Source: a virus (lineage: Duplodnaviria; Caudoviricetes). From it: a stretch of DNA of 29,077 nt. The notes beneath the pieces were generated by a model, which made no database searches, was not told where the DNA came from, and worked only from the letters and a program-made list of their open reading frames with translations. Below are positions 1 through 27,592 of this stretch, piece after piece. A program made the translations under genes and the position numbers. Each line of letters starts with the position of its first letter. The stretch's first letter is position 1. Location of the stretch: positions 1 through 29,077 of the IMG/VR virus record IMGVR_UViG_3300010244_000002; one strand, written 5' to 3'.

Positions 1-3000
1 CAGAAGCATAAGGGCTTGCATCGAAAGCTCCGATACCATAGAAGTTACCCTTCTCTTGTGCAATCTGGGAAGAACCCCAACCTGTTTCGTGAGCTGCATG
101 TCCAACTAAATATCTTGGGTCTAATCCCGATTGTCTTCCAGCTTCCATAAAGGCTTCACCTTGATTATACATGGTAGAACCCTCGGATGCATTACTATTA
201 ATCCAATCATTTAATTGAGAAGCTGTTAGAGTATCAGTTGTTTTTCCAAGGTCGTGTTTGGTTAAGTCAGAACTTGTCCAGAACTCTCCTTCTCCAACAT
301 TACCTAGTTCTCCACCTACTCCTGATCCACTTGATGAAGTTCCTCCTCCACCATTTAAACCACTTGTATCTCCTACGATTCCATTCTGTTCTTTTGCTTG
401 ATTTAATAAGTTTTGGATTCGTCCAATAAGTTTTTCTAAGAAGTTTAGGTTTTCTGTTTCTTTCGCTAAGTTTTCTTGGGTAAGAGTAGCAATTTCTTTT
501 CTAGAACTTGCAATGGATTGTTCCTCATTCGTTTTCTCGTCAGATGATTCTGTTTGGGAATTGTATTTCTCTGTCTGTTGTTGAGTAGACTTAGCATCTG
601 AGGTAGCTTTATTTAGAGCTTGTTCATGAGACATTCCTTGGTCAATATATTGATTATACAGTTGGTTTCTTTCTTGAGTATTGAAATCTCCACTCTCTGA
701 AAGTGCTGGGTTTTCTTGACTCGCACCCTCAACTTTTACTTGAGCGCCTTCAGGCATTTGAGAAACCATATCTGCTTGTTGGTTCTCACCAGTAGCTTCT
801 TCCTGGGTTCCAAACAAGAAGTTACCTATTCCACCTAATACTTTTTGTCCAAGACCGCTACCAGCTATGTAGCCACCAATTCCACCAATCGCTGAACCAA
901 TAGGTCCTAAACCGAGTCCGATTTTGGCGCCTAGAGCACTTCCTGCCCAGCCACCACCGACTCGTCCAGCTTCTTCGGTACCTGCTTGTAGTTTGTTTTC
1001 GGAGGTGAAAGTATTATAAATGCCCGATACAACATCTAATCCTAAACCTAGTTTACCTACTCCTTTACCTACTCCTTTACCTACTCCTTTACCTACTCCT
1101 TTACCTACTCCTGTTCCACCAGATGTAGTAGGAGGAGGTGTAGTTGAAGTGGTAGCTGACCCAGTCCCAGAGTTTCCACCAAGTCCAAACCATCCACCGA
1201 CAGTTTGTCCAGCGTTTTTAAGACCACCTAGAGCTTTTCCACCTAATGATTTAGCTCCTTGCCAAAGTTCTCCTCCAGCGTTTTTAAGACCACCTAGAGC
1301 TTTTCCACCTAATGATTTAACTCCTTGCCAAAGTCCTCCTCCAGCAATTGTTTGACCTAATCCTTTTAGACCACCAGTAGCTCCTTTACCTCCGAATATT
1401 TTAGGAAGTATAGAACCTAGTCCTTTTCCTCCAGTAAGTCCTTTTATTCCGCCTGAAAGAGCTAGCCAAGGAATATTTGAAATAAGTCCTCCAACAGCCG
1501 TACCTAATCCAGCAGCTCCAGCAACCATAGCAGCTTGACCAGCTCCACCAGAACCGAATTGGTTAACATTATCCATGAATTTATTTAATGTATCAATTAA
1601 GACGTTATCATTAAGCAAACGGTTCATTTCTTCCGCATGGGCTTCTCTAGATAAAGCATTCTTATCCGCAGAGTCTTGATATTGTTCCTCGTTTTCACCC
1701 ATCTGAGCTTCACCTTGTTGTTGTGTTTCGGCAAAAACCTCATCTAGGGCTTCATCAGATAGTTCACCTTGTTGATGTAGCTGTAAGGCTTCGTTTATAC
1801 CTTCAATATCTGTTCCTTGTAAATCAAATTGATTATAAAGGGTAGCAGCTGCACTTTCCGTAGACGGTGACATAGATAAAACACTGTCTGCAATGGAACC
1901 AAAGTTTTCTGGCGTTAATCCTTCTTGCGTTTGGTTAATATAATTATACATTCCATTTGGTCCCATGAAATCTGGGTTTTGTCCAGCCCCTAGCATAAAT
2001 CCTTGGTCTGAATACATGCTAGAACCAGAAATAGAAGAAGAAAAACTTGTCATGAATTGTTCTAAGTTTTCTCCTTGTAAAGAACGTCTTCCTGTGCCTG
2101 ATAAGACTGTAGCCATAGACATTTGGTCTTGGAGTTGGTCTGTTGTAACATCAAGTCCTTTTGACATTCCTTCTTGGATTCCAGTTAGGGCTCTTATTTG
2201 TTCTTGTTCACGACCTTGCATTCCTGAAGCTTTAATTCCACCGACAAAGCCTTCTTGTATAGCTTTCGCTTCATCTGCATTAGAAACAGTTCCTATTTGC
2301 ATAGATGAGTTCATAAATGAACTCAAGGCTTCTGCATCGACACCTGAGTAACGTTCCCCTTCAGCTAAGGTTCGAGACATCTCTTGTGTGTTCTCTGACC
2401 CTGTATAACCTAGATTACTCATAACATCTTCTGCGTAACCCATCATATCCATTCCGTTATACCCTAAGTCTGCCCCTAAGGCACCATAATCAGAACGGAT
2501 ACCACGGAAGTCATAGTCTCCTGTACGCATACCGAAAGATAAACTTTCATATCTCATTGCTTGATTTGTTTTTTTCCCTTGTCCATATCTATCAGCCATC
2601 TGATATCCAATAGCTCCTGTAATCGCTAGAGCAATTGAATTGGAACGCTCGTATAAGGTACCTTCTATAGTATCTCGGTCGGGTTTTTGAGAAATGTTTC
2701 CTTGAGCAGTTTCTCTATTTAAGTCTTCTACAAGAGGTGCTAATCGCTCAATTGCTTCATCAAGAGTATTAATGACATCGCTATGTTTATCCAAAATTTG
2801 TTGTTGTTGTCGCATTTCTTCGGCATAATCATCAAGTAATCGTCGTTGCTCCGCAGAAGCACCTGAGTCTCCGATTTCTGATTGGACATTTTGCATGTTT
2901 TCTTGGATTCGTTCGATTTCTTCACTAGCATCTGCCATTCCTTGGATGGCATCAGCACGAACTGACCCTTCTTCAGGTTGCCAATCACCTTCAAGAACAC

Positions 3001-3671: not shown

Positions 3672-4340
3672 TTATATGAAATCGTCATCATCATCTTCCC
3701 CAGTATCTGAGTCTTCATTAAATAATTTAATTGCTTCGTCTAATGATTCATCGTCTACTTCACGGAAGTCCCCTTCTTTGGCTTTTTCTATTTTTTCCAC
3801 GTCTTCAGGTTTCTTCCCTGTTTCAGCTATTTTTCTCGCTTCCTCAAAAACATTATCAATGTTTTCTTGAAGTCGTTTCTCTTGGTGGACTTTCTTCGCA
3901 TCTTCACCACCTTCTTCAAGATACTTGTTCCAATCATCAATTGATTTCATCTTGCCTTTGATTTTATCTAAGTCTTCTTCCTTGGTTAATGCATCTACTT
4001 GACGTGCAATATCTTCTTCATCATGCCCCTCACGAAGTACTTCGAAATCTTTATCTGTGTACCAAGAATCGTCATTATCTTCATAATGAGACCCTGAACC
4101 AGAACTATACCCTTTACGAGCTCGTTTAATTTTATTCGCATCATCTTCCATATTGTACATAATAAATCCAAGTTGCTCATTAGTAAGATTTTGGAATCGT
4201 TCATCCGTCGGTAGAACATTAAACTCTTTCATGATATACCATAAGTTTTTACCTAATGGTTTTTTCGATATATGTTTAAGACCGCCGACTTCTTTCAATT
4301 TAGTATTGAAATCGATTCCTCCATTCCATATAGTCATCAT
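3672..4340 (-). CDS. Tail assembly chaperone, second ORF (probably made as a +1 frameshift fusion with the upstream ORF)
   Basis: Lies directly before the tape measure gene, contains the GGLxxxxxxxxxxNLWxIMKxFNVLPTD motif recalled from this phage group, overlaps the upstream ORF and has no well-spaced RBS. Confidence 0.72.
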   Translation of the reverse strand: MMTIWNGGIDFNTKLKEVGGLKHISKKPLGKNLWYIMKEFNVLPTDERFQNLTNEQLGFIMYNMEDDANKIKRARKGYSSGSGSHYEDNDDSWYTDKDFEVLREGHDEEDIARQVDALTKEEDLDKIKGKMKSIDDWNKYLEEGGEDAKKVHQEKRLQENIDNVFEEARKIAETGKKPEDVEKIEKAKEGDFREVDDESLDEAIKLFNEDSDTGEDDDDDFI

Positions 4341-4782
4341 AAATAGTGGCTAAAATGAACGGATTGTATACCTCCTCAGTGTTTCTAAACAATTTCGGAA
4401 TATAAACTTCTTCAGTGTCTACGCCATATTTATTAATTTGATGCTCAATGGTTGCAAGCATATAATACGCTTTATAAGCATTAGACTGTGGATTCATTAG
4501 TGTAGCAAACCCACCAAACATCTGTTCCATAACCGCTTTAACTCGTGCTTGGTCGGTTAATGAAGGGAACTTCAGTTTAATTGTAAACTCAATCTCAATT
4601 TCGTCGAATTTATAATCCTCTTTGAATACATCATTATGCCCTGCAATAACTCGGAAAATTTCTTTTTTTTCTTCTTGTTCCTGTTCTTTACGTAGTTGTT
4701 CAGTGTTATCTTTGATATCATTGTCATTTGTCGTATCTTTTTTCGTTGGTTCTGGTGAATTGTCCTTGATTTCTTCAGACAT
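4300..4782 (-). CDS. Tail assembly chaperone, first ORF
   Basis: GGAGGAG RBS, a late-type motif upstream, position between tube and tape measure, and a C-terminus ending WRNRFQY. Confidence 0.75.
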   Translation of the reverse strand: MSEEIKDNSPEPTKKDTTNDNDIKDNTEQLRKEQEQEEKKEIFRVIAGHNDVFKEDYKFDEIEIEFTIKLKFPSLTDQARVKAVMEQMFGGFATLMNPQSNAYKAYYMLATIEHQINKYGVDTEEVYIPKLFRNTEEVYNPFILATIYDDYMEWRNRFQY

Positions 4783-4829
4783 TTTTCAATCTCCTCCAAT
4801 AGTTTAATGTGTTTTTGTCCTACAATTAG

Positions 4830-4844
4830 TAATATAATACAACT
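4830..4844 (-). promoter_or_regulatory. Putative phage late promoter (AGTTGTATTATATTA)
   Basis: Copy of the recurrent TTATATTA motif in the gap upstream of the chaperone gene. Confidence 0.6.
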
Positions 4845-4860
4845 AACCGTTCTTTCTCCA

Positions 4861-5964
4861 TTATACCATACTTTGAAGGCTTTCCTCTGCCTCATCAACA
4901 TTACTTTCTTCTTCAATCCAGTTGTTTATAGATACTGGTTTTTCAGATTCATCATTGTCATACGTATCTTCGAAGTCCTTTTGGTCTGCAAAGTTTTCAA
5001 ATATATTCTTTAATGTCATGAACAAGTAGTTGTTTACATTCTTAACTTTCCCTTTCTTCTCTCCAATGATTACTCGGTTAAACCCTTTGTATAGCTCACT
5101 ATGTAACCCTTCGTTTTCAATAGTTAAATAAGTTTTTCCTCGTTCTTTTTCAACAGATCTATGAGAATGGATGAGTTTATCTGTAAATAACTCAAACTGA
5201 CTAAAGTCACTAAAGCTATATGTTTTCATTAGTGTGATGATTTGTTCACCAAACAAATCGTTTAACGCATAACTTTCAGTGTACATGTCTATTAACTCAT
5301 CTTCGGTATCTTGGGTTTGGTTGTTTTGGAAAGACTGTTTCAATTGATTATTTTGAAGCTCGTACTCTGATTCTTTATTTTCTTTAAAATCTTTAGGTAT
5401 TGTTAAGTTCTTATTACTAGGGTAAACATTTTTAATATCAGTAGACAAATTAGTTAACTCTGTCAATGATTCATGGTCTTCGTAGGGGTTATTTTCGTCA
5501 AAGGTATTAACATGTTTAACAGGTTCTTCATTTGATTCTTCTACATTTTCAGAAATATAATGAGACTGTTCTTCTGTCATTAATTCATCTTCGTATGTAA
5601 TGATATATTTTTCTTCTTCCTCATCTATTGCTTCAGGGACTTGTAAATAAAGTTTATTTGCTCTACCTGTTCTTACTTCTTTTAAAAGACCCACTCTAGA
5701 TAAATTCTTTTTAATTTTTATAACTGTAGGCTTAGAAACGTTAAGTATCTCTGCTAAGGAATTATTAGAATAAATGAAGTAAATATCTCCATTTTCGTCA
5801 AACCATTCATTTTTAATACTTACACTTAAACGGTCATTCAAAACAACATAAGCTTGGCGGTCATTTGCTGTTAATGTATTTTTATATTTTTCTCCTTTAA
5901 GTAATAACTTAGGGAATTGATAGAACTCTTGCTCTGCTTTGTTTTTAATGTTTTTATTTTTCAA
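4861..5964 (-). CDS. repA: RepA_N-family plasmid-type replication initiator protein
   Basis: The N-terminus FYQFPKLLL..KYK..L...AYVVLNDRLSVSIKNEWFDENGDIYFIYSNNSLAEILNVSKPTVIKIKKNL...GLLKEVRTG..NKLYL is the RepA_N winged-helix signature. It is followed by an acidic linker and a C-terminal KVKNVNNYLFMTLKN motif. TTG start with AGAGG RBS. Confidence 0.9.
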   Translation of the reverse strand: MKNKNIKNKAEQEFYQFPKLLLKGEKYKNTLTANDRQAYVVLNDRLSVSIKNEWFDENGDIYFIYSNNSLAEILNVSKPTVIKIKKNLSRVGLLKEVRTGRANKLYLQVPEAIDEEEEKYIITYEDELMTEEQSHYISENVEESNEEPVKHVNTFDENNPYEDHESLTELTNLSTDIKNVYPSNKNLTIPKDFKENKESEYELQNNQLKQSFQNNQTQDTEDELIDMYTESYALNDLFGEQIITLMKTYSFSDFSQFELFTDKLIHSHRSVEKERGKTYLTIENEGLHSELYKGFNRVIIGEKKGKVKNVNNYLFMTLKNIFENFADQKDFEDTYDNDESEKPVSINNWIEEESNVDEAEESLQSMV

Positions 5965-6030
5965 GTATAAACGTCCTCTTTTATAAATTTACGATTCAAT
6001 ACTTCTATGTATTAACGTATGTATATTTAA

Positions 6031-6067
6031 ACACTACATTAAGAACATTTAATTGTCAAGAACATTT
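6031..6067 (-). promoter_or_regulatory. Sigma-A-type promoter of repA (TTGACA-17-TAGTGT) overlapped by two AAATGTTCTT direct repeats
   Basis: -35 at 6054-6059, -10 at 6031-6036, 17-bp spacer. The repeats are at 6041-6050 and 6058-6067. Confidence 0.7.
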
Positions 6068-6088
6068 TACCTACTCCGTTATACATAT

Positions 6089-6117
6089 AAAAAAAAGAGA
6101 CCTTCTATGAGGTCTCT
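6089..6117 (-). terminator. Intrinsic terminator after the tail tube gene
   Basis: AGAGACCT/AGGTCTCT stem followed by a T-tract on the minus strand. Confidence 0.88.
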
Positions 6118-6140
6118 CCATTATGTTATGTATTTGATTA

Positions 6141-6566
6141 TTAAGCAGATACGTTAGCGGCTTGCAAGAATTGCCAAGTTGAGTTCTCACTCATGATTTC
6201 GTTTGCAGTTACTTCAATATTCAAATCCTGAGCTGAACAACCACGGTAAGAAACAACGACTTGTTTTGTTAAGTTATCCATAACTACAATATCTATAACG
6301 TCTTTTTGTAGTATGTCTTCACCTAAAGCGGTAAGCCCTAATTGGTCTAGAGATTCACGCTTCATACGGAATCTTTCTAATGTTAATGAGCCTTCATATT
6401 GTAAGTAAACATGTTCTTGAGGCATGATAGAACCAATCTCGTATACACCAGTAGTTCCATAAGAAATCTCTGCTGAAACTGACTGTGCACGTCCAATTGT
6501 TTTACCATTAACCATCAAGTATACCGTATTACCTGTATGAACGGCTTGCTGAGTTACACTTGCCAT
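6141..6566 (-). CDS. Tail tube protein
   Basis: MASVTQQAVHTGNTVYLMV...IGRAQS...YGTTGVYEIGSIMPQEHVYL is typical of Herelleviridae tail tubes; it follows the sheath gene. Confidence 0.92.
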   Translation of the reverse strand: MASVTQQAVHTGNTVYLMVNGKTIGRAQSVSAEISYGTTGVYEIGSIMPQEHVYLQYEGSLTLERFRMKRESLDQLGLTALGEDILQKDVIDIVVMDNLTKQVVVSYRGCSAQDLNIEVTANEIMSENSTWQFLQAANVSA

Positions 6567-6600
6567 TTATATATTCACTCCTATTCATAATTTAGATAAG

Positions 6601-6621
6601 AAGGAGGGGAACCCCCTCCTT
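6601..6621. other. GC-rich hairpin between the sheath and tube genes
   Basis: AAGGAGGGG-AAC-CCCCTCCTT forms a perfect 9-bp stem with no strong U-tract, so it may be a stability or attenuation element. Confidence 0.6.
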
Positions 6622-6627
6622 GATTAT

Positions 6628-8439
6628 TTACGATTCTAGTATTTCTTGTTTATATACAAGAGATACGTTGATTCGTTTGATATTTCTGATTGGTTCGATT
6701 ACCATTGATATATTTGCAACTTCACCATTAATAATAACCTGAACATCTTCTGGGTTATAATCAAGAATTTCGTTGTCACGTTTCTTCTGGTCAAGGAACG
6801 ATTCTACTGAGTTCTTGATAAGTGAAGCAGATACATCTATTACTCGGTTTCCGATATAATTTTCATCTAACTCAATCTTCAATTCAGATACTAAGAAGTC
6901 ATGAGCTTCTCCGACACCTAGTTGGTTATTTACTGGGTCATTTTGGTCATTATAAGTCGTAACATCGTCGACAACACGGAATTTAGTACTAGTACGGTTA
7001 CGGACAAATTCTGCCATAATTACACCACCTGCATTTAGGGCATCCATTTGTACAGAATCATGAATTGTGGATAAATTACTTATTGATAACTGTTTGAATG
7101 TTACAGCTTCACCGACTGGTAATCCTGAAGCTAACCCAGCAATCTGAGCTGCAAATAGATAAGCAGGGGTTTCTTTTACTCGACCATCTACAGAAGTTCG
7201 TGTTCCTGAGATTCCTGTTAAAGCAACTCGTGAATTGCGTAAAGTTGTTGCTCTTCCTAATAATCGTTCAGGGGTCTCATCGTAGCTTCCTCCAACAATT
7301 GCTCTCATTGGGTCTCCGTTTGCCGTACGGTCATTAACAAAAGCTGAAGCTTCAGCATGGACAGATTCTTTATCTGTAAGAGGTACTAAGTAGTAGCCAC
7401 CTTCGTTAGCAAACAATTTAATTTTTTCTCCCCATGATTCTGGGACAACTCCTGTTTCTCCATCTTCTAGAGTTACTGGACCAAAGTCTTGGATTTCTAC
7501 TCCACCGTCAACAACAAGATTGTTAGAACTAGATAGTTCTTGTACGATAAGGTTGTCAGGTATATTAAGTTCAATATAAGGGTCATATTCTAGTTGTTGA
7601 ACTAAGTCAGCAAGTAAACCAGTTACTCGAACTTCGTTATCTGCGGTAACTTCTGTTTCTGGTATAGGGTCTAAACCAGCTGTGTTGATGTTTTTGTTAC
7701 CAGTAGTTGGCATAGTTGCTACAATTCCGTCAATTGTATTTAATTCGTTAACTAATCGAGATGCATAAGCATAAGGACCAGAACCTAGAGTAAACTCTAC
7801 GGATTGAGTACCAGTTGATCCACCTTCTACTACTGTTCCGTCTGTGGTAGAGTCATCGGTTGTTGAACCTGTTTCTCCACTTCCGTCTCCGATATGTACA
7901 ATGAATTTATCGTCTGCGATTTCCACACCTACATAACCAACATTGGAATCTTCTTCTTTATTTACAGAAATAATATGCCCAATATTACGATAAACTTGTC
8001 GGTGGTTATCTTGTGGGAAATTAACAGTTAAGTTTCGGTTATTATTGTTATTATATGTACTTGTTCTTAATTCCAATTCAATGTCATTAGCATCTTGCCC
8101 GTAAATTTTGGATTGGAAAGTAACGCCACCTTGCTCAACGCTTGCTGGTTTTGCATCTTCTACACGCATAGCGAATACGTCGCCTGCACCTGGAGATTCG
8201 TTTGAAGGGTTCCAAGCCATTTCTAAGGCATCAAGGAGTTCTCCTCCTCTAAAGATATTTTGAGCATCATATAAGTTACGTACACGATAAACCGTATCTG
8301 GTTGTCCACCTTGAGCTGAACCAATAAGCATTAATGGTTTTTCGGAATCACTAGCAGACCCAGTTAAAGCTGTCGTATCCGTTTGAATTTGTGTACTAGG
8401 ACGATCAACGGGTCTTCTTGGGAAATTTTCTATTGCCAT
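6628..8439 (-). CDS. Tail sheath protein
   Basis: 603 aa with GSAQGGQP...IFRGGELLDALEMAWNP, YYLVPLTDKESVHAE, FRVVDDVTTYN and GEAHDFLVSELK motifs recalled from Twort/SPO1-like sheaths. Confidence 0.93.
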   Translation of the reverse strand: MAIENFPRRPVDRPSTQIQTDTTALTGSASDSEKPLMLIGSAQGGQPDTVYRVRNLYDAQNIFRGGELLDALEMAWNPSNESPGAGDVFAMRVEDAKPASVEQGGVTFQSKIYGQDANDIELELRTSTYNNNNNRNLTVNFPQDNHRQVYRNIGHIISVNKEEDSNVGYVGVEIADDKFIVHIGDGSGETGSTTDDSTTDGTVVEGGSTGTQSVEFTLGSGPYAYASRLVNELNTIDGIVATMPTTGNKNINTAGLDPIPETEVTADNEVRVTGLLADLVQQLEYDPYIELNIPDNLIVQELSSSNNLVVDGGVEIQDFGPVTLEDGETGVVPESWGEKIKLFANEGGYYLVPLTDKESVHAEASAFVNDRTANGDPMRAIVGGSYDETPERLLGRATTLRNSRVALTGISGTRTSVDGRVKETPAYLFAAQIAGLASGLPVGEAVTFKQLSISNLSTIHDSVQMDALNAGGVIMAEFVRNRTSTKFRVVDDVTTYNDQNDPVNNQLGVGEAHDFLVSELKIELDENYIGNRVIDVSASLIKNSVESFLDQKKRDNEILDYNPEDVQVIINGEVANISMVIEPIRNIKRINVSLVYKQEILES

Positions 8440-18086: not shown

Positions 18087-18094
18087 TTGTAGCT

Positions 18095-18127
18095 AAAAAA
18101 AAATACACCCTCAATAAGAAGGTGTAT
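18095..18127 (-). terminator. Intrinsic terminator of the putative ncRNA
   Basis: ATACACCTTC/GAGGGTGTAT 10-bp stem (one G-U) followed by a long T-tract. Confidence 0.88.
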
Positions 18128-18372
18128 CTGTGTAGGTCGGACTTTATTCAGTCTTGGAAGGAAGGGATGAACTACACACCGAATAAATTCGGTGGTTTCT
18201 AGGAACGGTATTGCGTAAGGCACTTATCCGTCCTTTACAGGTGGGTAACCTACCAGTACGTCTTACGTACCTATTTACTAAGGCTCGTCCCGAGCCAATT
18301 GTTTTGTAGGATTAACCCACTAATAGAGAGAGAATTTAATGATTGATTAAAAATAAGCATTTCCGACCTGTT
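18095..18372 (-). ncRNA. Putative structured non-coding RNA (about 280 nt), family not recognised
   Basis: No ORF of 60 aa or more in the interval. The closing helix AGGUCGGA/UCCGACCU encloses at least six further helices. An extended -10 lies upstream and a terminator downstream. Confidence 0.72.
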
Positions 18373-18378
18373 AATTAT

Positions 18379-18389
18379 ATTATACCACA
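18379..18389 (-). promoter_or_regulatory. Extended -10 promoter (TGTGGTATAAT) for the putative ncRNA
   Basis: Perfect TGnTATAAT about 10 nt upstream of the first paired base; no good -35. Confidence 0.62.
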
Positions 18390-18426
18390 AAGGGTGTTAA
18401 CTACTTACTTTGACAGAACTATTATT

Positions 18427-24484: not shown

Positions 24485-26101
24485 TTACCCGAATATATTT
24501 TGTATATCTGTTTGTGTTGGTTCTTGACTCAAGCTAATGAAATCAGCGTTAAATTCATATCCATCGTCTCCGTAGAATATTTCGATAAGTCTTTCCCAAC
24601 CAAGCATTGCATAAACAGAACTCTGGGAGAAGTGGTCAGGTCCTTTACGTGATATAACTTGGTAAAACTCTCCAGTTCGTTCGTCTTCTTCGTCACGAAT
24701 AGTTACGTTCTTCCAGTGGTCTACATACATTTGTAAATGTTTTTCATCTTGGTTTCTGTAATGATGAATATCTCCTTCTTTTAACATAGAGATAAATCGT
24801 TTGTTCTGCATTAACTTATCTACCTTTACAGTATTGTTGTGTTCTGACCAAGAAGCATTCAATTTCCCAGTAGAACGAGGAGATGAATTATATTGACATC
24901 CAAATACTTTGTTTTCTCCATAGATTTGCATGAGTTTTGCAATTTTGTCTCCTGAGTCTCCAATATCAGCTACGATAATATCTGGGTCATAAGGTCTTAA
25001 AGCTACCTGAATTTGCTTAATATCTGCACCTACATTGGTTGAGTCTGTAGCACTCGGTTTCTGAATCGGTATTAAATTAAGTAAATCTATTCGTCCGTTT
25101 TCAACCATACCATATATAGAAATGTAATGGGTATTACCCCAGTCTATTCCTACAGATATAAACTTATAATCTCCTCGGTCTTGGATAGGTTGGACACTTT
25201 CATGAACATGGCTATATATATCTTCGTCTTGAACCATAAGCTTTTGGTCTAAGAACGGAATCCCTAGCACATAGTTGTAAAAACTTTGTTTCGAGCGTGA
25301 TGATATTTCTTGTCTTTTTAAATCATCAGCAGATTTCCAAACAGCATTTAAACTTGTAATGGAAAATCCTTTGGTTCCTTGTCCATTTTTAACTCGTTCT
25401 GGGTATTTTGGTACCCACATTCCGTTATTCCATCTATCAAGTGGTTTCCCACACTTTTGACAAACAAATTGGAAAGACCCATCGACAACAGTCTTCGATA
25501 ATAAATCGACTCCTTCTGGGTTTACTGTAAGAATATTTCCACCAGCTTCAATACTGTCTGAGTTATATTCTTCATAGTTCATCTGATTCCAATGGTTACA
25601 TCGTTCACATTTATGTAAATAATGATTCTGGTCTGATTGTTTAAATAATCTATTTACTCCTACATCTGGGAGAGTCGGTGTAGACCAACGATTGATTATT
25701 TTGTACTTCGAAGACTCTATCGAGTTTAATGCCGACTCCTCACTCAATGGTGGCACTCGATCATACTCGTCCAAACTTAGTAAGTCGATGTCCACCCCTT
25801 CCATCTGTGAGGGTTTAGAACTTGACCTAAAATAGATAAATGAATCTCTTATTTTCTTCCGTTTCATCGAATCGACTTCTGGGTCTAGGATTGATTGATA
25901 ATAATCGCTAGAAAGGACTGTATCTAATCTAGTCTTCACAAAGTCGTCCATCTGATCATTGGTCGGAAATGCAAATAATGCCTTCACTGCATCATATGAA
26001 TGAGTGTCTGCGAAATGTAATAGCTTAATGACACCTAGTTCAGATAGTCCTAACTGTCTACTCTTCTGTACAACGAAATTTGGGTGTTCTGAGTTCAATA
26101 G
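24485..26101 (-). CDS. terL: Terminase large subunit, exon 2
   Basis: KSRQLGLSE Walker A, LSLDEYD Walker B, WSTPT coupling motif, VGIDWG nuclease motif and a final DHF. Confidence 0.93.
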   Translation of the reverse strand, partial: LLNSEHPNFVVQKSRQLGLSELGVIKLLHFADTHSYDAVKALFAFPTNDQMDDFVKTRLDTVLSSDYYQSILDPEVDSMKRKKIRDSFIYFRSSSKPSQMEGVDIDLLSLDEYDRVPPLSEESALNSIESSKYKIINRWSTPTLPDVGVNRLFKQSDQNHYLHKCERCNHWNQMNYEEYNSDSIEAGGNILTVNPEGVDLLSKTVVDGSFQFVCQKCGKPLDRWNNGMWVPKYPERVKNGQGTKGFSITSLNAVWKSADDLKRQEISSRSKQSFYNYVLGIPFLDQKLMVQDEDIYSHVHESVQPIQDRGDYKFISVGIDWGNTHYISIYGMVENGRIDLLNLIPIQKPSATDSTNVGADIKQIQVALRPYDPDIIVADIGDSGDKIAKLMQIYGENKVFGCQYNSSPRSTGKLNASWSEHNNTVKVDKLMQNKRFISMLKEGDIHHYRNQDEKHLQMYVDHWKNVTIRDEEDERTGEFYQVISRKGPDHFSQSSVYAMLGWERLIEIFYGDDGYEFNADFISLSQEPTQTDIQNIFG

Positions 26102-27385
26102 CAATAATACCCTCGGTTTCCCGATATTTATTAGGGGTTTAGACTAGATATTGATTGAGATATTTGGCTCTCAATCCCTCACGTTACTTCTTAATTTTAC
26201 TCAAAATTATATCTTCTATCTCTTCCTTTTTCTGCTTGTAATTTACTCGTAGTAACGGTATATTGTTATCTTTACAGTATTTGTTTTTCTTTTCATCGTT
26301 CTTTTGGGTTCTAACAAATTTATCTACCCCTCCGAAATGGTTAATGGGTTCAAAATGTTGTACACCATCATACTCAATCAAGAGTAGTACGTTGTCTTTA
26401 GTGTCCATAACTGCAAAGTCAAATGGAAGTCTTTTTGTATTCTTTAAATCTGGGTATGTATATTGGGATTTATACGCTATTTTGTTCTTTTTAAGTAACT
26501 TAGCAATAAAAGTTTCCCCTTTTGACAATTTACATTCTGGACAGGCACTATATCTGAGTATATGTGCTGCTCGAACGTCCCATTCATGGTTACATCCTTT
26601 TTTATTATGTATTATAGTAACCTTTTCATTTGCACTAGTATATTCACAACCATCCTTTAGAATGTACTCATTTCCATGCTTATCATACAAATCTTGTTCA
26701 AACTGCTCTGTGGTTTTCCTACTAAATGGTTTATTATGTCTACACTTAATACAACTTCCAGAGTGGAGTATCGTTGCAGGTCTCACATAAAATTCTGTAC
26801 CACAATCCTCGTGCACTACTTTTATAGGTGTTATATTATTTACATATTTTTCTCCCTCAACAACTGTGAAATTTCCTACTTCTTTAACTTTTCTTCTAAA
26901 CGTTTCTATATCATTAGTTATAGAGTCCTTGTAACAGATAGGACATGTTCTTGTGTAGTTCAAAACCCCTGAAGGTTTTGCTTCCCACTCATGTTTACAA
27001 ACTTTATTTTTAAACCTAACCTTAGTTCTTGAGTTTATATATGGGGTAAGTATTTCGATTTCTCCGTTACTACTTTCTTTTAATTTAGCTTTATAATCTT
27101 CCTCTGTAAGCTTTTTAATATTAGTCACCTCCCTTATTTTATTTTTTTTAGTAAATTAAGTTTTCTTATCTAGTTCTCCTTAACACCATTTTGTTAAGTT
27201 CCTAGAATTTTAGTCGTTAGAGATTTCCTTGACTATATTTAGATTAACAATCTATTTGTCAAGGCTTCCTACGGGATTCCCTCTGCCCTTATACACTAGG
27301 AATTAGGGTTTCTTACCAGTATGTTGTTTTTGTGTATACTACTTTACTTTGCCCGTTTAGTGAGGTTTATAGTCAACTAAATTTA
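26102..27385 (-). mobile_element. Group I intron (IA-like) in terL
   Basis: P1 GUCGAU/GUUGAC with a U-G pair at the splice site; P3 CCUCAC/GUGAGG; P7 GACUA/UAGUC; P8 GAUUGAGA/UCUCAAUC; P9 with GAAA loop; terminal G. Splicing gives in-frame HRPWQVD-LLNSEHP (607 aa in total). Confidence 0.88.
26184..27128 (-). CDS. Intron-encoded homing endonuclease (Zn-ribbon repeats + Vsr/EDxHD-like nuclease domain)
   Basis: Three C..H.W/F...CxxC repeats, then SKGE...LPFDF...IEYDGVQH...D..KN.YC....IPLLRV. Confidence 0.85.
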   Translation of the reverse strand: MTNIKKLTEEDYKAKLKESSNGEIEILTPYINSRTKVRFKNKVCKHEWEAKPSGVLNYTRTCPICYKDSITNDIETFRRKVKEVGNFTVVEGEKYVNNITPIKVVHEDCGTEFYVRPATILHSGSCIKCRHNKPFSRKTTEQFEQDLYDKHGNEYILKDGCEYTSANEKVTIIHNKKGCNHEWDVRAAHILRYSACPECKLSKGETFIAKLLKKNKIAYKSQYTYPDLKNTKRLPFDFAVMDTKDNVLLLIEYDGVQHFEPINHFGGVDKFVRTQKNDEKKNKYCKDNNIPLLRVNYKQKKEEIEDIILSKIKK

Positions 27386-27592
27386 ATCGACTTGCCAAGG
27401 TCTATGTTGTAACGCCCTATCTCTTTGGTCGCTAGGTATCGAAAATGTCATCGGTCCATTTTTAGTCGTGTGATTCCGTAGTGCATAAGTCGAAGGTTTT
27501 AACATATCTATGATATAAGCTAACTGTTCAGAAGTAATATCCCTTGTACCAAACATGTTTTCTGCCATCTTAATAATTTGTTTTCCGTTCAT
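27386..27592 (-). CDS. terL: Terminase large subunit, exon 1
   Basis: PSTYALRNH...HRPWQ Q-motif; the ORF stops at the first intron bases (TAA). Confidence 0.88.

What the first reader, a model, noticed from the sequence alone, without database searches (positions are those of the whole stretch)
4861..5964. Plasmid-type RepA_N initiator inside the tail operon of a Herelleviridae-like phage
Seen: an intact 367-aa gene with a clear RepA_N signature lies between the tail tube and the chaperones. It is insulated by an upstream terminator, has its own sigma-A promoter, and a late promoter restarts transcription behind it. Established: RepA_N proteins initiate theta plasmids (pSK41/pAD1 type) and occur in ICEs and some temperate phages, whereas Herelleviridae are considered strictly lytic and typically encode their own replisome. 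Inference: this could be a phage-plasmid or carrier-state replicon in a lineage where none is expected. Alternatively it is a captured moron that interferes with resident plasmids or primes early replication using host proteins.
Basis: partly seen in the sequence, partly recalled or inferred. Interest (0 to 1): 0.88.

Follow-up and report, generated by a model that had tools for sequence, protein, structure and literature searches.

The report
Origin-less plasmid initiators captured by herelleviruses
A large tailed phage carries an intact gene for a plasmid replication-starter protein that lacks the repeated origin sequences normally found inside such genes, two other phages of the same family show the same pattern, and the protein likely acts on resident plasmids during infection rather than letting the phage live as a plasmid.

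Summary
An intact 367-aa RepA_N gene (minus strand, 4861-5964) lies between the tail tube and chaperone genes of a Herelleviridae-like contig. Contigs from other runs bridge its junctions.

The phage-plasmid reading is not supported:
- RepA_N replicons keep their origin as repeats inside the gene. 51 of 53 non-herellevirus homolog clusters show such repeats; this gene shows none (p 0.49 direct, 0.94 inverted).
- The terminator and late promoter around it are family-wide features of an insertion hotspot.
- No ParA was found, but only about 19% of the genome is present.

New here: two further herellevirus fragments (2 of 47 records; 0 of 31 near-complete) carry stand-alone RepA_N genes at other late-region sites. 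Both have the same terminator / sigma-A-like promoter / late-promoter layout and no linker repeats. The three do not form one clade (AU p 0.002), so capture was repeated.

Best reading (0.4): a plasmid-derived initiator kept for a trans function, likely occupying the origins of resident RepA_N plasmids. Host-primase interference, a remote phage origin, a passenger and a plasmid state remain rivals. No function was tested.

The parts
4861..5964 (-). repA gene, 367 aa, RepA_N-family initiator; 30.3% GC, lowest of 21 window genes measured
5701..5928 (-). RepA_N winged-helix DNA-binding domain (residues 13-88)
   Evidence: Pfam PF06970 E 9.7e-24; 45-47% identity to staphylococcal RepA N-domain structures
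5389..5610 (-). central linker, where relatives carry their origin; acidic, low pLDDT, no significant direct or inverted repeats
5419..5439 (-). possible single remnant Rep box at the place of the last box of the Alkalibacterium homolog; a weaker look-alike at 5507-5519; not above chance
   Evidence: read from the linker sequences printed (best pair 14 of 18, p 0.37)
4990..5241 (-). RepA C-terminal helical domain (residues 242-325), primase-binding in pSK41 RepA
   Evidence: Pfam PF18008 E 7.8e-6; five-helix model; role from PMC5703833 passages
6031..6059 (-). sigma-A-type (early) promoter candidate TTGACA-17-TAGTGT
   Evidence: not listed
6041..6067 (.). two exact 10-nt direct repeats 17 nt apart overlapping the promoter; possible autoregulatory operator, untested
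   Evidence: (D12)
5975..5980 (-). ribosome-binding site ahead of the TTG start
   Evidence: sequence
6086..6119 (-). intrinsic terminator after the tube gene; family-wide feature
4830..4839 (-). Herelleviridae late-promoter motif ahead of the chaperone genes; family-wide feature
   Evidence: consensus from PMC7698491
4860..4868 (-). extended -10-like motif overlapping the repA stop codon, like the motif many relatives have upstream of the chaperone; the repA tail appears to run into older phage DNA (inferred)
6141..6566 (-). tail tube gene (upstream neighbour)
3672..4782 (-). tail assembly chaperone genes (downstream neighbours)

Best explanation
This is an intact plasmid-type RepA_N initiator gene without detectable origin repeats, sitting as a stand-alone insert in a tail-region hotspot of a Herelleviridae-like phage, and its protein likely acts in trans on resident plasmids rather than replicating the phage. 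Shown: the gene, its domains, its descent from Carnobacteriaceae-type plasmid RepA, the missing repeats, and two parallel cases. Inferred steps: (1) host RNA polymerase reads it early from the sigma-A-type promoter, apart from the late tail genes, because it sits between a terminator and the next late promoter. (2) The winged-helix domain binds the Rep boxes of related plasmids or plasmid-like elements in the host. (3) With the primase-binding C-domain still attached and outside the plasmid's copy control, it jams or misfires those origins. (4) The phage lost its own boxes, so it is not a target. The gain would be less competition for replication and packaging from elements that also carry defence genes.
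For: Origin loss: 51 of 53 homolog clusters have linker repeats at p <= 0.02; the phage gene has p 0.49/0.94. In a second test on aligned linkers, 7 of 7 close homologs pass and the phage has p 0.37/0.99. The other two herellevirus genes have p 0.88/0.95 and 0.50/1.0. 0 of 3 against 51 of 53 gives Fisher p 3.6e-4. Protein kept: identity to the nearest homolog P0003 is 70/112 in the N-domain, 95/164 in the C-domain, 18/63 in the linker. In simulation the ORF stayed open in 1 of 2000 runs at 10% random divergence, the level at which the L197 repeats fade in only 49 of 150 runs. Repeated capture: the three phage genes are rejected as one clade (AU p 0.002, quick tree). Plasmid ancestry: the N-domain groups with P0003 and Alkalibacterium gilvum L197, whose contig has ParA, relaxase and MobC genes. 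Targets plausibly co-occur: run X2 holds the P0003-type gene on a separate 16,201-nt contig. Relatives' neighbourhoods carry defence genes: AbiEi and a type III methyltransferase at L197, a type III methyltransferase at L091, a type I specificity subunit at L094. Precedent: pSK41 Rep with the linker deleted works in trans (PMC5703833, passages); ICP1 Odn uses a captured RepA_N domain against a satellite origin (PMC8263062, passages).
Against: No expression, binding or phenotype was shown. Blocking plasmid replication within one lytic cycle would not remove defence proteins already made (reasoning). Keeping the C-domain fits a host-primase role or a working initiator as well as a decoy; Odn replaced that domain with a nuclease. 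RepA_N iterons are not always discernible (PMC7145576, passage). The closest contexted homolog L197 missed the threshold (p 0.079/0.04), passing only, and the phage linker keeps a possible remnant box. DNA of the nearest homologs P0003 and P0007 was not available, so the repeats may have been lost before capture. Linker windows for the three phage genes were set by hand. About 81% of the genome is unseen. The two parallel cases are single metagenomic contigs not checked with reads.
Confidence: 0.4

Rival explanations
1. Host-takeover factor: the protein works mainly through its C-domain, binding host DnaG primase or primosome parts to slow chromosome replication or divert them to phage DNA.
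For: The C-domain is as conserved as the N-domain. All three phage proteins end in a P-x-x-x-[ND]-W-like motif shared with several relatives. pSK41 Rep C-domain binds DnaG and resembles DnaD (PMC5703833). Herelleviridae already use a host-replication inhibitor, sci (PMC10383478, passage).
Against: The DNA-binding domain is fully kept, which a pure primase decoy would not need. The three captures each come from different plasmid lineages with different C-domains.
Confidence: 0.2
2. Lytic-cycle initiator: RepA fires an origin elsewhere in the phage genome to start early replication with host enzymes.
For: Complete two-domain initiator with an early-type promoter. An initiator-like HTH_36 family (phrog_1835) is strong in 7 of 47 herellevirus records and sits in the replication module of phage Anthos, annotated 'RepA-like replication initiator'. 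About 81% of the genome is unseen.
Against: A captured replicon brings its origin inside the gene, and its absence in three captures is hard to explain if the job is initiation. No non-coding repeat array was found in the 29 kb. 0 of 31 near-complete relatives have RepA_N.
Confidence: 0.17
3. Neutral passenger: a plasmid gene that landed in a permissive hotspot and has no role.
For: The slot varies from about 80 to 7,000 nt and holds unrelated cargo: homing endonucleases, 3D-domain, Rok-like and beta-helix genes. repA GC (30.3%) still equals the plasmid homolog's (30.1%).
Against: Intact frame despite repeat loss (valid only if the ancestor had repeats). Three independent cases share layout and repeat loss. 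The gene is intact in the other assemblies seen.
Confidence: 0.15
4. Phage-plasmid or carrier state: RepA maintains the phage as an extrachromosomal replicon.
For: Full-length plasmid-type initiator with a host-type promoter. The CheckV estimate leaves about 81% of the genome unseen. A degenerate origin cannot be excluded.
Against: No origin repeats. No ParA in any of the three fragments, whereas the control genome has four. Plasmid relatives often have parA next to repA. The capsid was not found in 0 of 51 genomes of the likely host family (weak, one genome per species). TsarBomba has an initiator-like gene in the same slot.
Confidence: 0.08

Closest known systems
RepA_N plasmid initiators (pSK41/pTZ2162 RepA, PDB 4PQL, 4PT7, 5KBJ; Carnobacteriaceae and Aerococcaceae plasmid RepA such as Alkalibacterium gilvum L197, Aerococcus NZ_CP116591)
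   Same: Winged-helix N-domain, linker, helical C-domain; 33-43% identity over most of the length to these plasmid-type proteins.
   Different: No Rep-box repeats in the linker; no adjacent parA or relaxase; sits alone in a phage late region.
Odn (Gp88) of Vibrio phage ICP1 (PMC8263062)
   Same: A lytic phage holds a captured RepA_N DNA-binding domain; the proposed target is the origin of a co-resident element.
   Different: Odn is fused to a nuclease and is proven; here the native C-domain is kept, no nuclease domain is present, and the target is untested.
RepA_N initiators of Streptococcus siphoviruses (phage 7201 orf4 and kin)
   Same: Share the N-domain (45-50% over about 100 aa).
   Different: They sit in the replication module next to a DnaC homolog, keep linker repeats (L239), branch apart, and no phage record matches the C-domain.
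phrog_1835 HTH_36 initiator-like genes of Bastillevirinae (TsarBomba gp89, Anthos gp105)
   Same: Initiator-like winged-helix gene in cultured Herelleviridae; in TsarBomba it occupies the same tube-chaperone slot.
   Different: A different family, with only weak N-domain likeness (hhalign probability 55%); no Pfam RepA_N hit; function unknown.

Membership tests
RepA_N protein family | N-terminal RepA_N winged-helix domain above the curated cut-off | tested here: met
   83.5 bits against 30; PDB matches
RepA_N protein family | Three-part build: N-domain, linker, helical host-specific C-domain | tested here: met
   PF18008 26.7 bits against 25; model with two folded parts and a low-confidence linker, mean pLDDT 58
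RepA_N plasmid replicon | Origin (Rep boxes) inside the rep gene | tested here: not met
   p 0.49/0.94 against 51 of 53 homolog clusters positive; p 0.37/0.99; a degenerate remnant is not excluded
RepA_N plasmid replicon | Supports autonomous replication | not testable with these tools
   needs a mini-replicon assay
RepA_N plasmid replicon | Copy-number control (antisense RNA in staphylococcal members) | not tested
   Rfam found nothing in the window; the review says such control is not seen outside staphylococci
Phage-plasmid | Partition, addiction or repressor genes | tested here: inconclusive
   none among 31 window ORFs by Pfam; no ParA in three fragments that are 19-31% complete
Phage-plasmid | Present as a replicon in host genomes | tested here: inconclusive
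   capsid found in 0 of 51 genomes of the likely host family, one per species
Herelleviridae | Family-type morphogenesis genes in conserved order | tested here: met
   PHROG map; capsid about 61% to Enterococcus phages, 776 records hit; tube 70% to Listeria phage proteins
Herelleviridae | Late promoter of the TGTTATATTA type | tested here: met
   7 minus-strand sites, all upstream of genes; consensus in PMC7698491
Herelleviridae | Whole-genome placement, genome size, own replisome | not testable with these tools
   contig is 29 kb, estimated 19% complete
Odn-type origin-directed nuclease | Nuclease domain fused to the RepA_N domain | tested here: not met
   only RepA_N and Bac_RepA_C found
Moron | Stand-alone insert with own promoter, absent from relatives, distinct composition | tested here: met
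   0 of 80 tube loci have repA in the slot or flanks; promoter candidate and lowest GC of 21 genes; no terminator of its own downstream

The most novel reading that the evidence does not exclude
Herelleviruses have repeatedly domesticated the replication initiators of their hosts' plasmids, shed the built-in origin, and use the full protein as an early anti-plasmid or anti-satellite weapon: a phage-encoded incompatibility factor that needs no nuclease.
Probability: 0.35. Interest if true: 0.8.

Novelty: new variant of a known kind. Interest (0 to 1): 0.58.

Why it matters
RepA on a phage contig is commonly read as a sign of a phage-plasmid; this case shows a simple sequence check (repeats in the linker) that can argue against that call. 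If the trans-acting reading is right, lytic phages of a family used in therapy have a recurring way to attack resident plasmids, which in these hosts carry defence and resistance genes. An origin-less RepA would then be a lead for plasmid curing. The three natural variants make the question testable with ordinary cloning.

Tried and rejected
- Complex prediction of the RepA C-domain with DnaG from a stand-in host (G001): no answer, score 0.00; not used either way.
- The profile search of the 1.84-billion-protein library never ran, so distant full-length relatives were not surveyed that way.
- No RNA holder was listed for the stretch.
- Viral scans with the single RepA protein, alignment A1 and the chaperone found nothing.
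- Host search by short DNA matches in 51 family genomes gave no clear CRISPR spacer (only 5 candidates scored per genome).
- The 10-nt repeat at 4855-4864 and 6115-6124 as a target-site duplication: not accepted. It is one of 12 short repeat families in 2 kb, and it would place the family-wide terminator inside the insert.
- DnaA boxes near repA: none; 3 in the window against 4.3 expected.
- The joint 4688-6394 in run X2 as a repA-less allele: not accepted; side 24 nt, letters between unknown, probably another herellevirus.
- Contig depth in X2 (phage pieces about 5,000-7,000; P0003-type contig 219) is not a copy number and was not used as evidence.
- No contig length was shared between the RepA relatives and 104 tube relatives; a weak hint only.
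- A home-built N-domain profile over 149 herellevirus loci (2.16 Mb) found only the L293 case again.
- Literature: searches listed no paper on RepA_N genes in Herelleviridae. I saw listings and abstract starts only, except the six papers searched for passages; PMC13230107 has no whole-word RepA. Subscription papers are mostly missing from the library, and no supplements were read.

Full report
Observation. It scores above the Pfam cut-offs for RepA_N and Bac_RepA_C. By sequence and by predicted fold its best solved relatives are staphylococcal plasmid RepA N-domains. The model has two folded parts and a low-confidence linker, with mean pLDDT 58 from an alignment of 6. The 29-kb contig is a Herelleviridae-type morphogenesis region from terminase to tape measure, estimated 19% complete. 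It has no close cultured relative: capsid about 61% to Enterococcus phages, tube at most 76% to other clusters. The junctions are bridged by contigs of three runs from two studies. A second JGI contig of 38,246 nt is listed for the RepA, tube and capsid clusters alike.

The site. The terminator, the promoter candidate and the late motif (consensus from passages of PMC7698491) are present. Of 80 tube loci fetched, 76 had enough downstream DNA and 57 of these have the terminator; 52 reached the first chaperone and 48 of these have the late motif, including loci with an empty slot. The slot ranges from about 80 to 7,000 nt. It holds homing endonucleases, 3D-domain, Rok-like and beta-helix genes among 74 ORFs scanned. 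None of the 80 loci has repA. So the site is a ready-made landing pad, and only the promoter belongs to the insert. In TsarBomba the same slot holds an HTH_36 initiator-like gene, preceded by inverted DnaA-box-like motifs (the box consensus is recalled). A homolog in phage Anthos is annotated as a RepA-like initiator.

Origin of the gene. No phage record matches 80% of the protein (132 hits) or its C-domain, while 19 plasmid records match nearly all of it. The N-domain groups with unnamed P0003 (100/94) and, one node deeper, with Alkalibacterium gilvum L197 (100/96). This tree has few columns and an unsettled bootstrap. The C-domain groups with P0003-P0006 in a quick tree. L197 lies among ParA, MobC and relaxase genes. 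repA has the lowest GC of 21 window genes, 30.3%, equal to L197. The host is probably a Carnobacteriaceae member; this is inferred from RepA and from an IS605-type end shared with that family, not from spacers.

The key test. RepA_N replicons carry their origin as Rep boxes in the linker-coding part of the gene (PMC5703833, passages). From loci L081-L239, 151 had an N-terminal hit, 117 gave complete genes, 108 were distinct, and these formed 53 clusters at 85%. 51 of 53 have direct or inverted linker repeats at p <= 0.02 against codon shuffles; the misses are L172 and L197. The phage gene has p 0.49 and 0.94 and the most acidic linker. With aligned linkers, 7 of 7 close homologs, L197 included, pass and the phage does not. 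At most one remnant box is visible by eye. No non-coding repeat array lies elsewhere in the contig. Both protein domains remain well conserved against P0003. Random divergence large enough to blur L197-type repeats almost never leaves the frame open, which points to selection on the protein if the ancestor had such repeats.

Recurrence. A Pfam RepA_N search of 47 herellevirus records (50 loci given, 3 not held) found none in 31 near-complete genomes but two in fragments, G067 and G061. Both are herellevirus late regions, collinear with the window. The genes (312 and 274 aa) stand alone at other sites: after the endolysin, and after a virion-gene block. Each has an upstream terminator, a TTGnnn-17-TAnnnT promoter candidate and a downstream late-type motif, read by eye, and neither has linker repeats. 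The three proteins are rejected as one clade (AU p 0.002; quick tree, one long branch). 0 of 3 against 51 of 53 gives p 3.6e-4. A viral scan with an alignment of these proteins returned only the same two contigs. None of the three fragments has ParA.

Mechanism. A complete initiator, read early, without its own binding sites, most simply acts on something else. pSK41 Rep lacking its linker still starts replication in trans. ICP1 uses a captured RepA_N domain to attack a satellite origin (PMC8263062, passages). The nearest homolog occurs on a separate contig in the same run, and related elements carry defence genes. I therefore favour interference with resident RepA_N plasmids (0.4), ahead of host-primase takeover (0.2), a remote lytic origin (0.17), a passenger (0.15) and a plasmid state (0.08). 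Every functional step is inferred; none was measured.

Novelty. The protein family is known, and capture of its DNA-binding domain by a lytic phage is known. Full-length, origin-less RepA inserts recurring in Herelleviridae did not appear in six literature searches or in this scan's earlier notes by sequence or place. Earlier notes found by words describe RepA-like cassettes in other lytic phages, but those keep repeats beside the gene (unchecked). Verdict: new variant of a known kind, interest 0.58.

Noticed in passing
window 18090-18400 (minus strand), between the LysM/3D gene and the 127-aa gene before the portal: An orphan IS605/TnpB right end: 158 nt, 78-94% identical to the region just downstream of tnpB in several Carnobacteriaceae-family genomes, with no tnpB in the window. 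It has a -10-like motif upstream and about 20 nt plus a terminator-like hairpin downstream, so it could be a stand-alone omega-RNA with a guide. The putative guide matched 1 of 51 family genomes with one mismatch, no more than the control.
   Followed up: partly
L240:4434-4501 (TsarBomba) and L011:11703-11724: Inverted DnaA-box-like motifs directly upstream of the HTH_36 initiator-like gene (phrog_1835) in the tube-chaperone slot; the family is strong in 7 of 47 herellevirus records.
   Followed up: partly
L011, L019, L020, L026, L029-L031, L035, L042, L044, L045, L048, L049, L054, L058, L062, L075 (tube-chaperone slot): Genes with a Rok winged-helix domain (PF23159) recur in this slot; a possible phage mimic of a host silencer.
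   Followed up: no
G054, G055, G056, G057, G058, G060, G073-G077, G079, G081, G082: A 548-586 aa open frame in many herelleviruses gives a weak hit to the initiator-like phrog_1835 N-part; perhaps the family's own initiator.
   Followed up: no
window 24485-27592: The terminase large subunit is split around a homing endonuclease gene (26184-27128), probably an intron; Rfam gave no hit at gathering scores.
   Followed up: no
L297:10000-10947 (G061): A TnpB/Cas12f-like gene interrupts the portal gene of the second RepA-bearing herellevirus.
   Followed up: no
window 5334-5337 and 6078-6089: Strain variation in runs X1/X2: two adjacent residues in the RepA C-region and the length of the terminator's T tract differ.
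   Followed up: no
window 1052-1345: Coding tandem repeats (12 nt x 5, 66 nt x 2) in the tape-measure gene.
   Followed up: no
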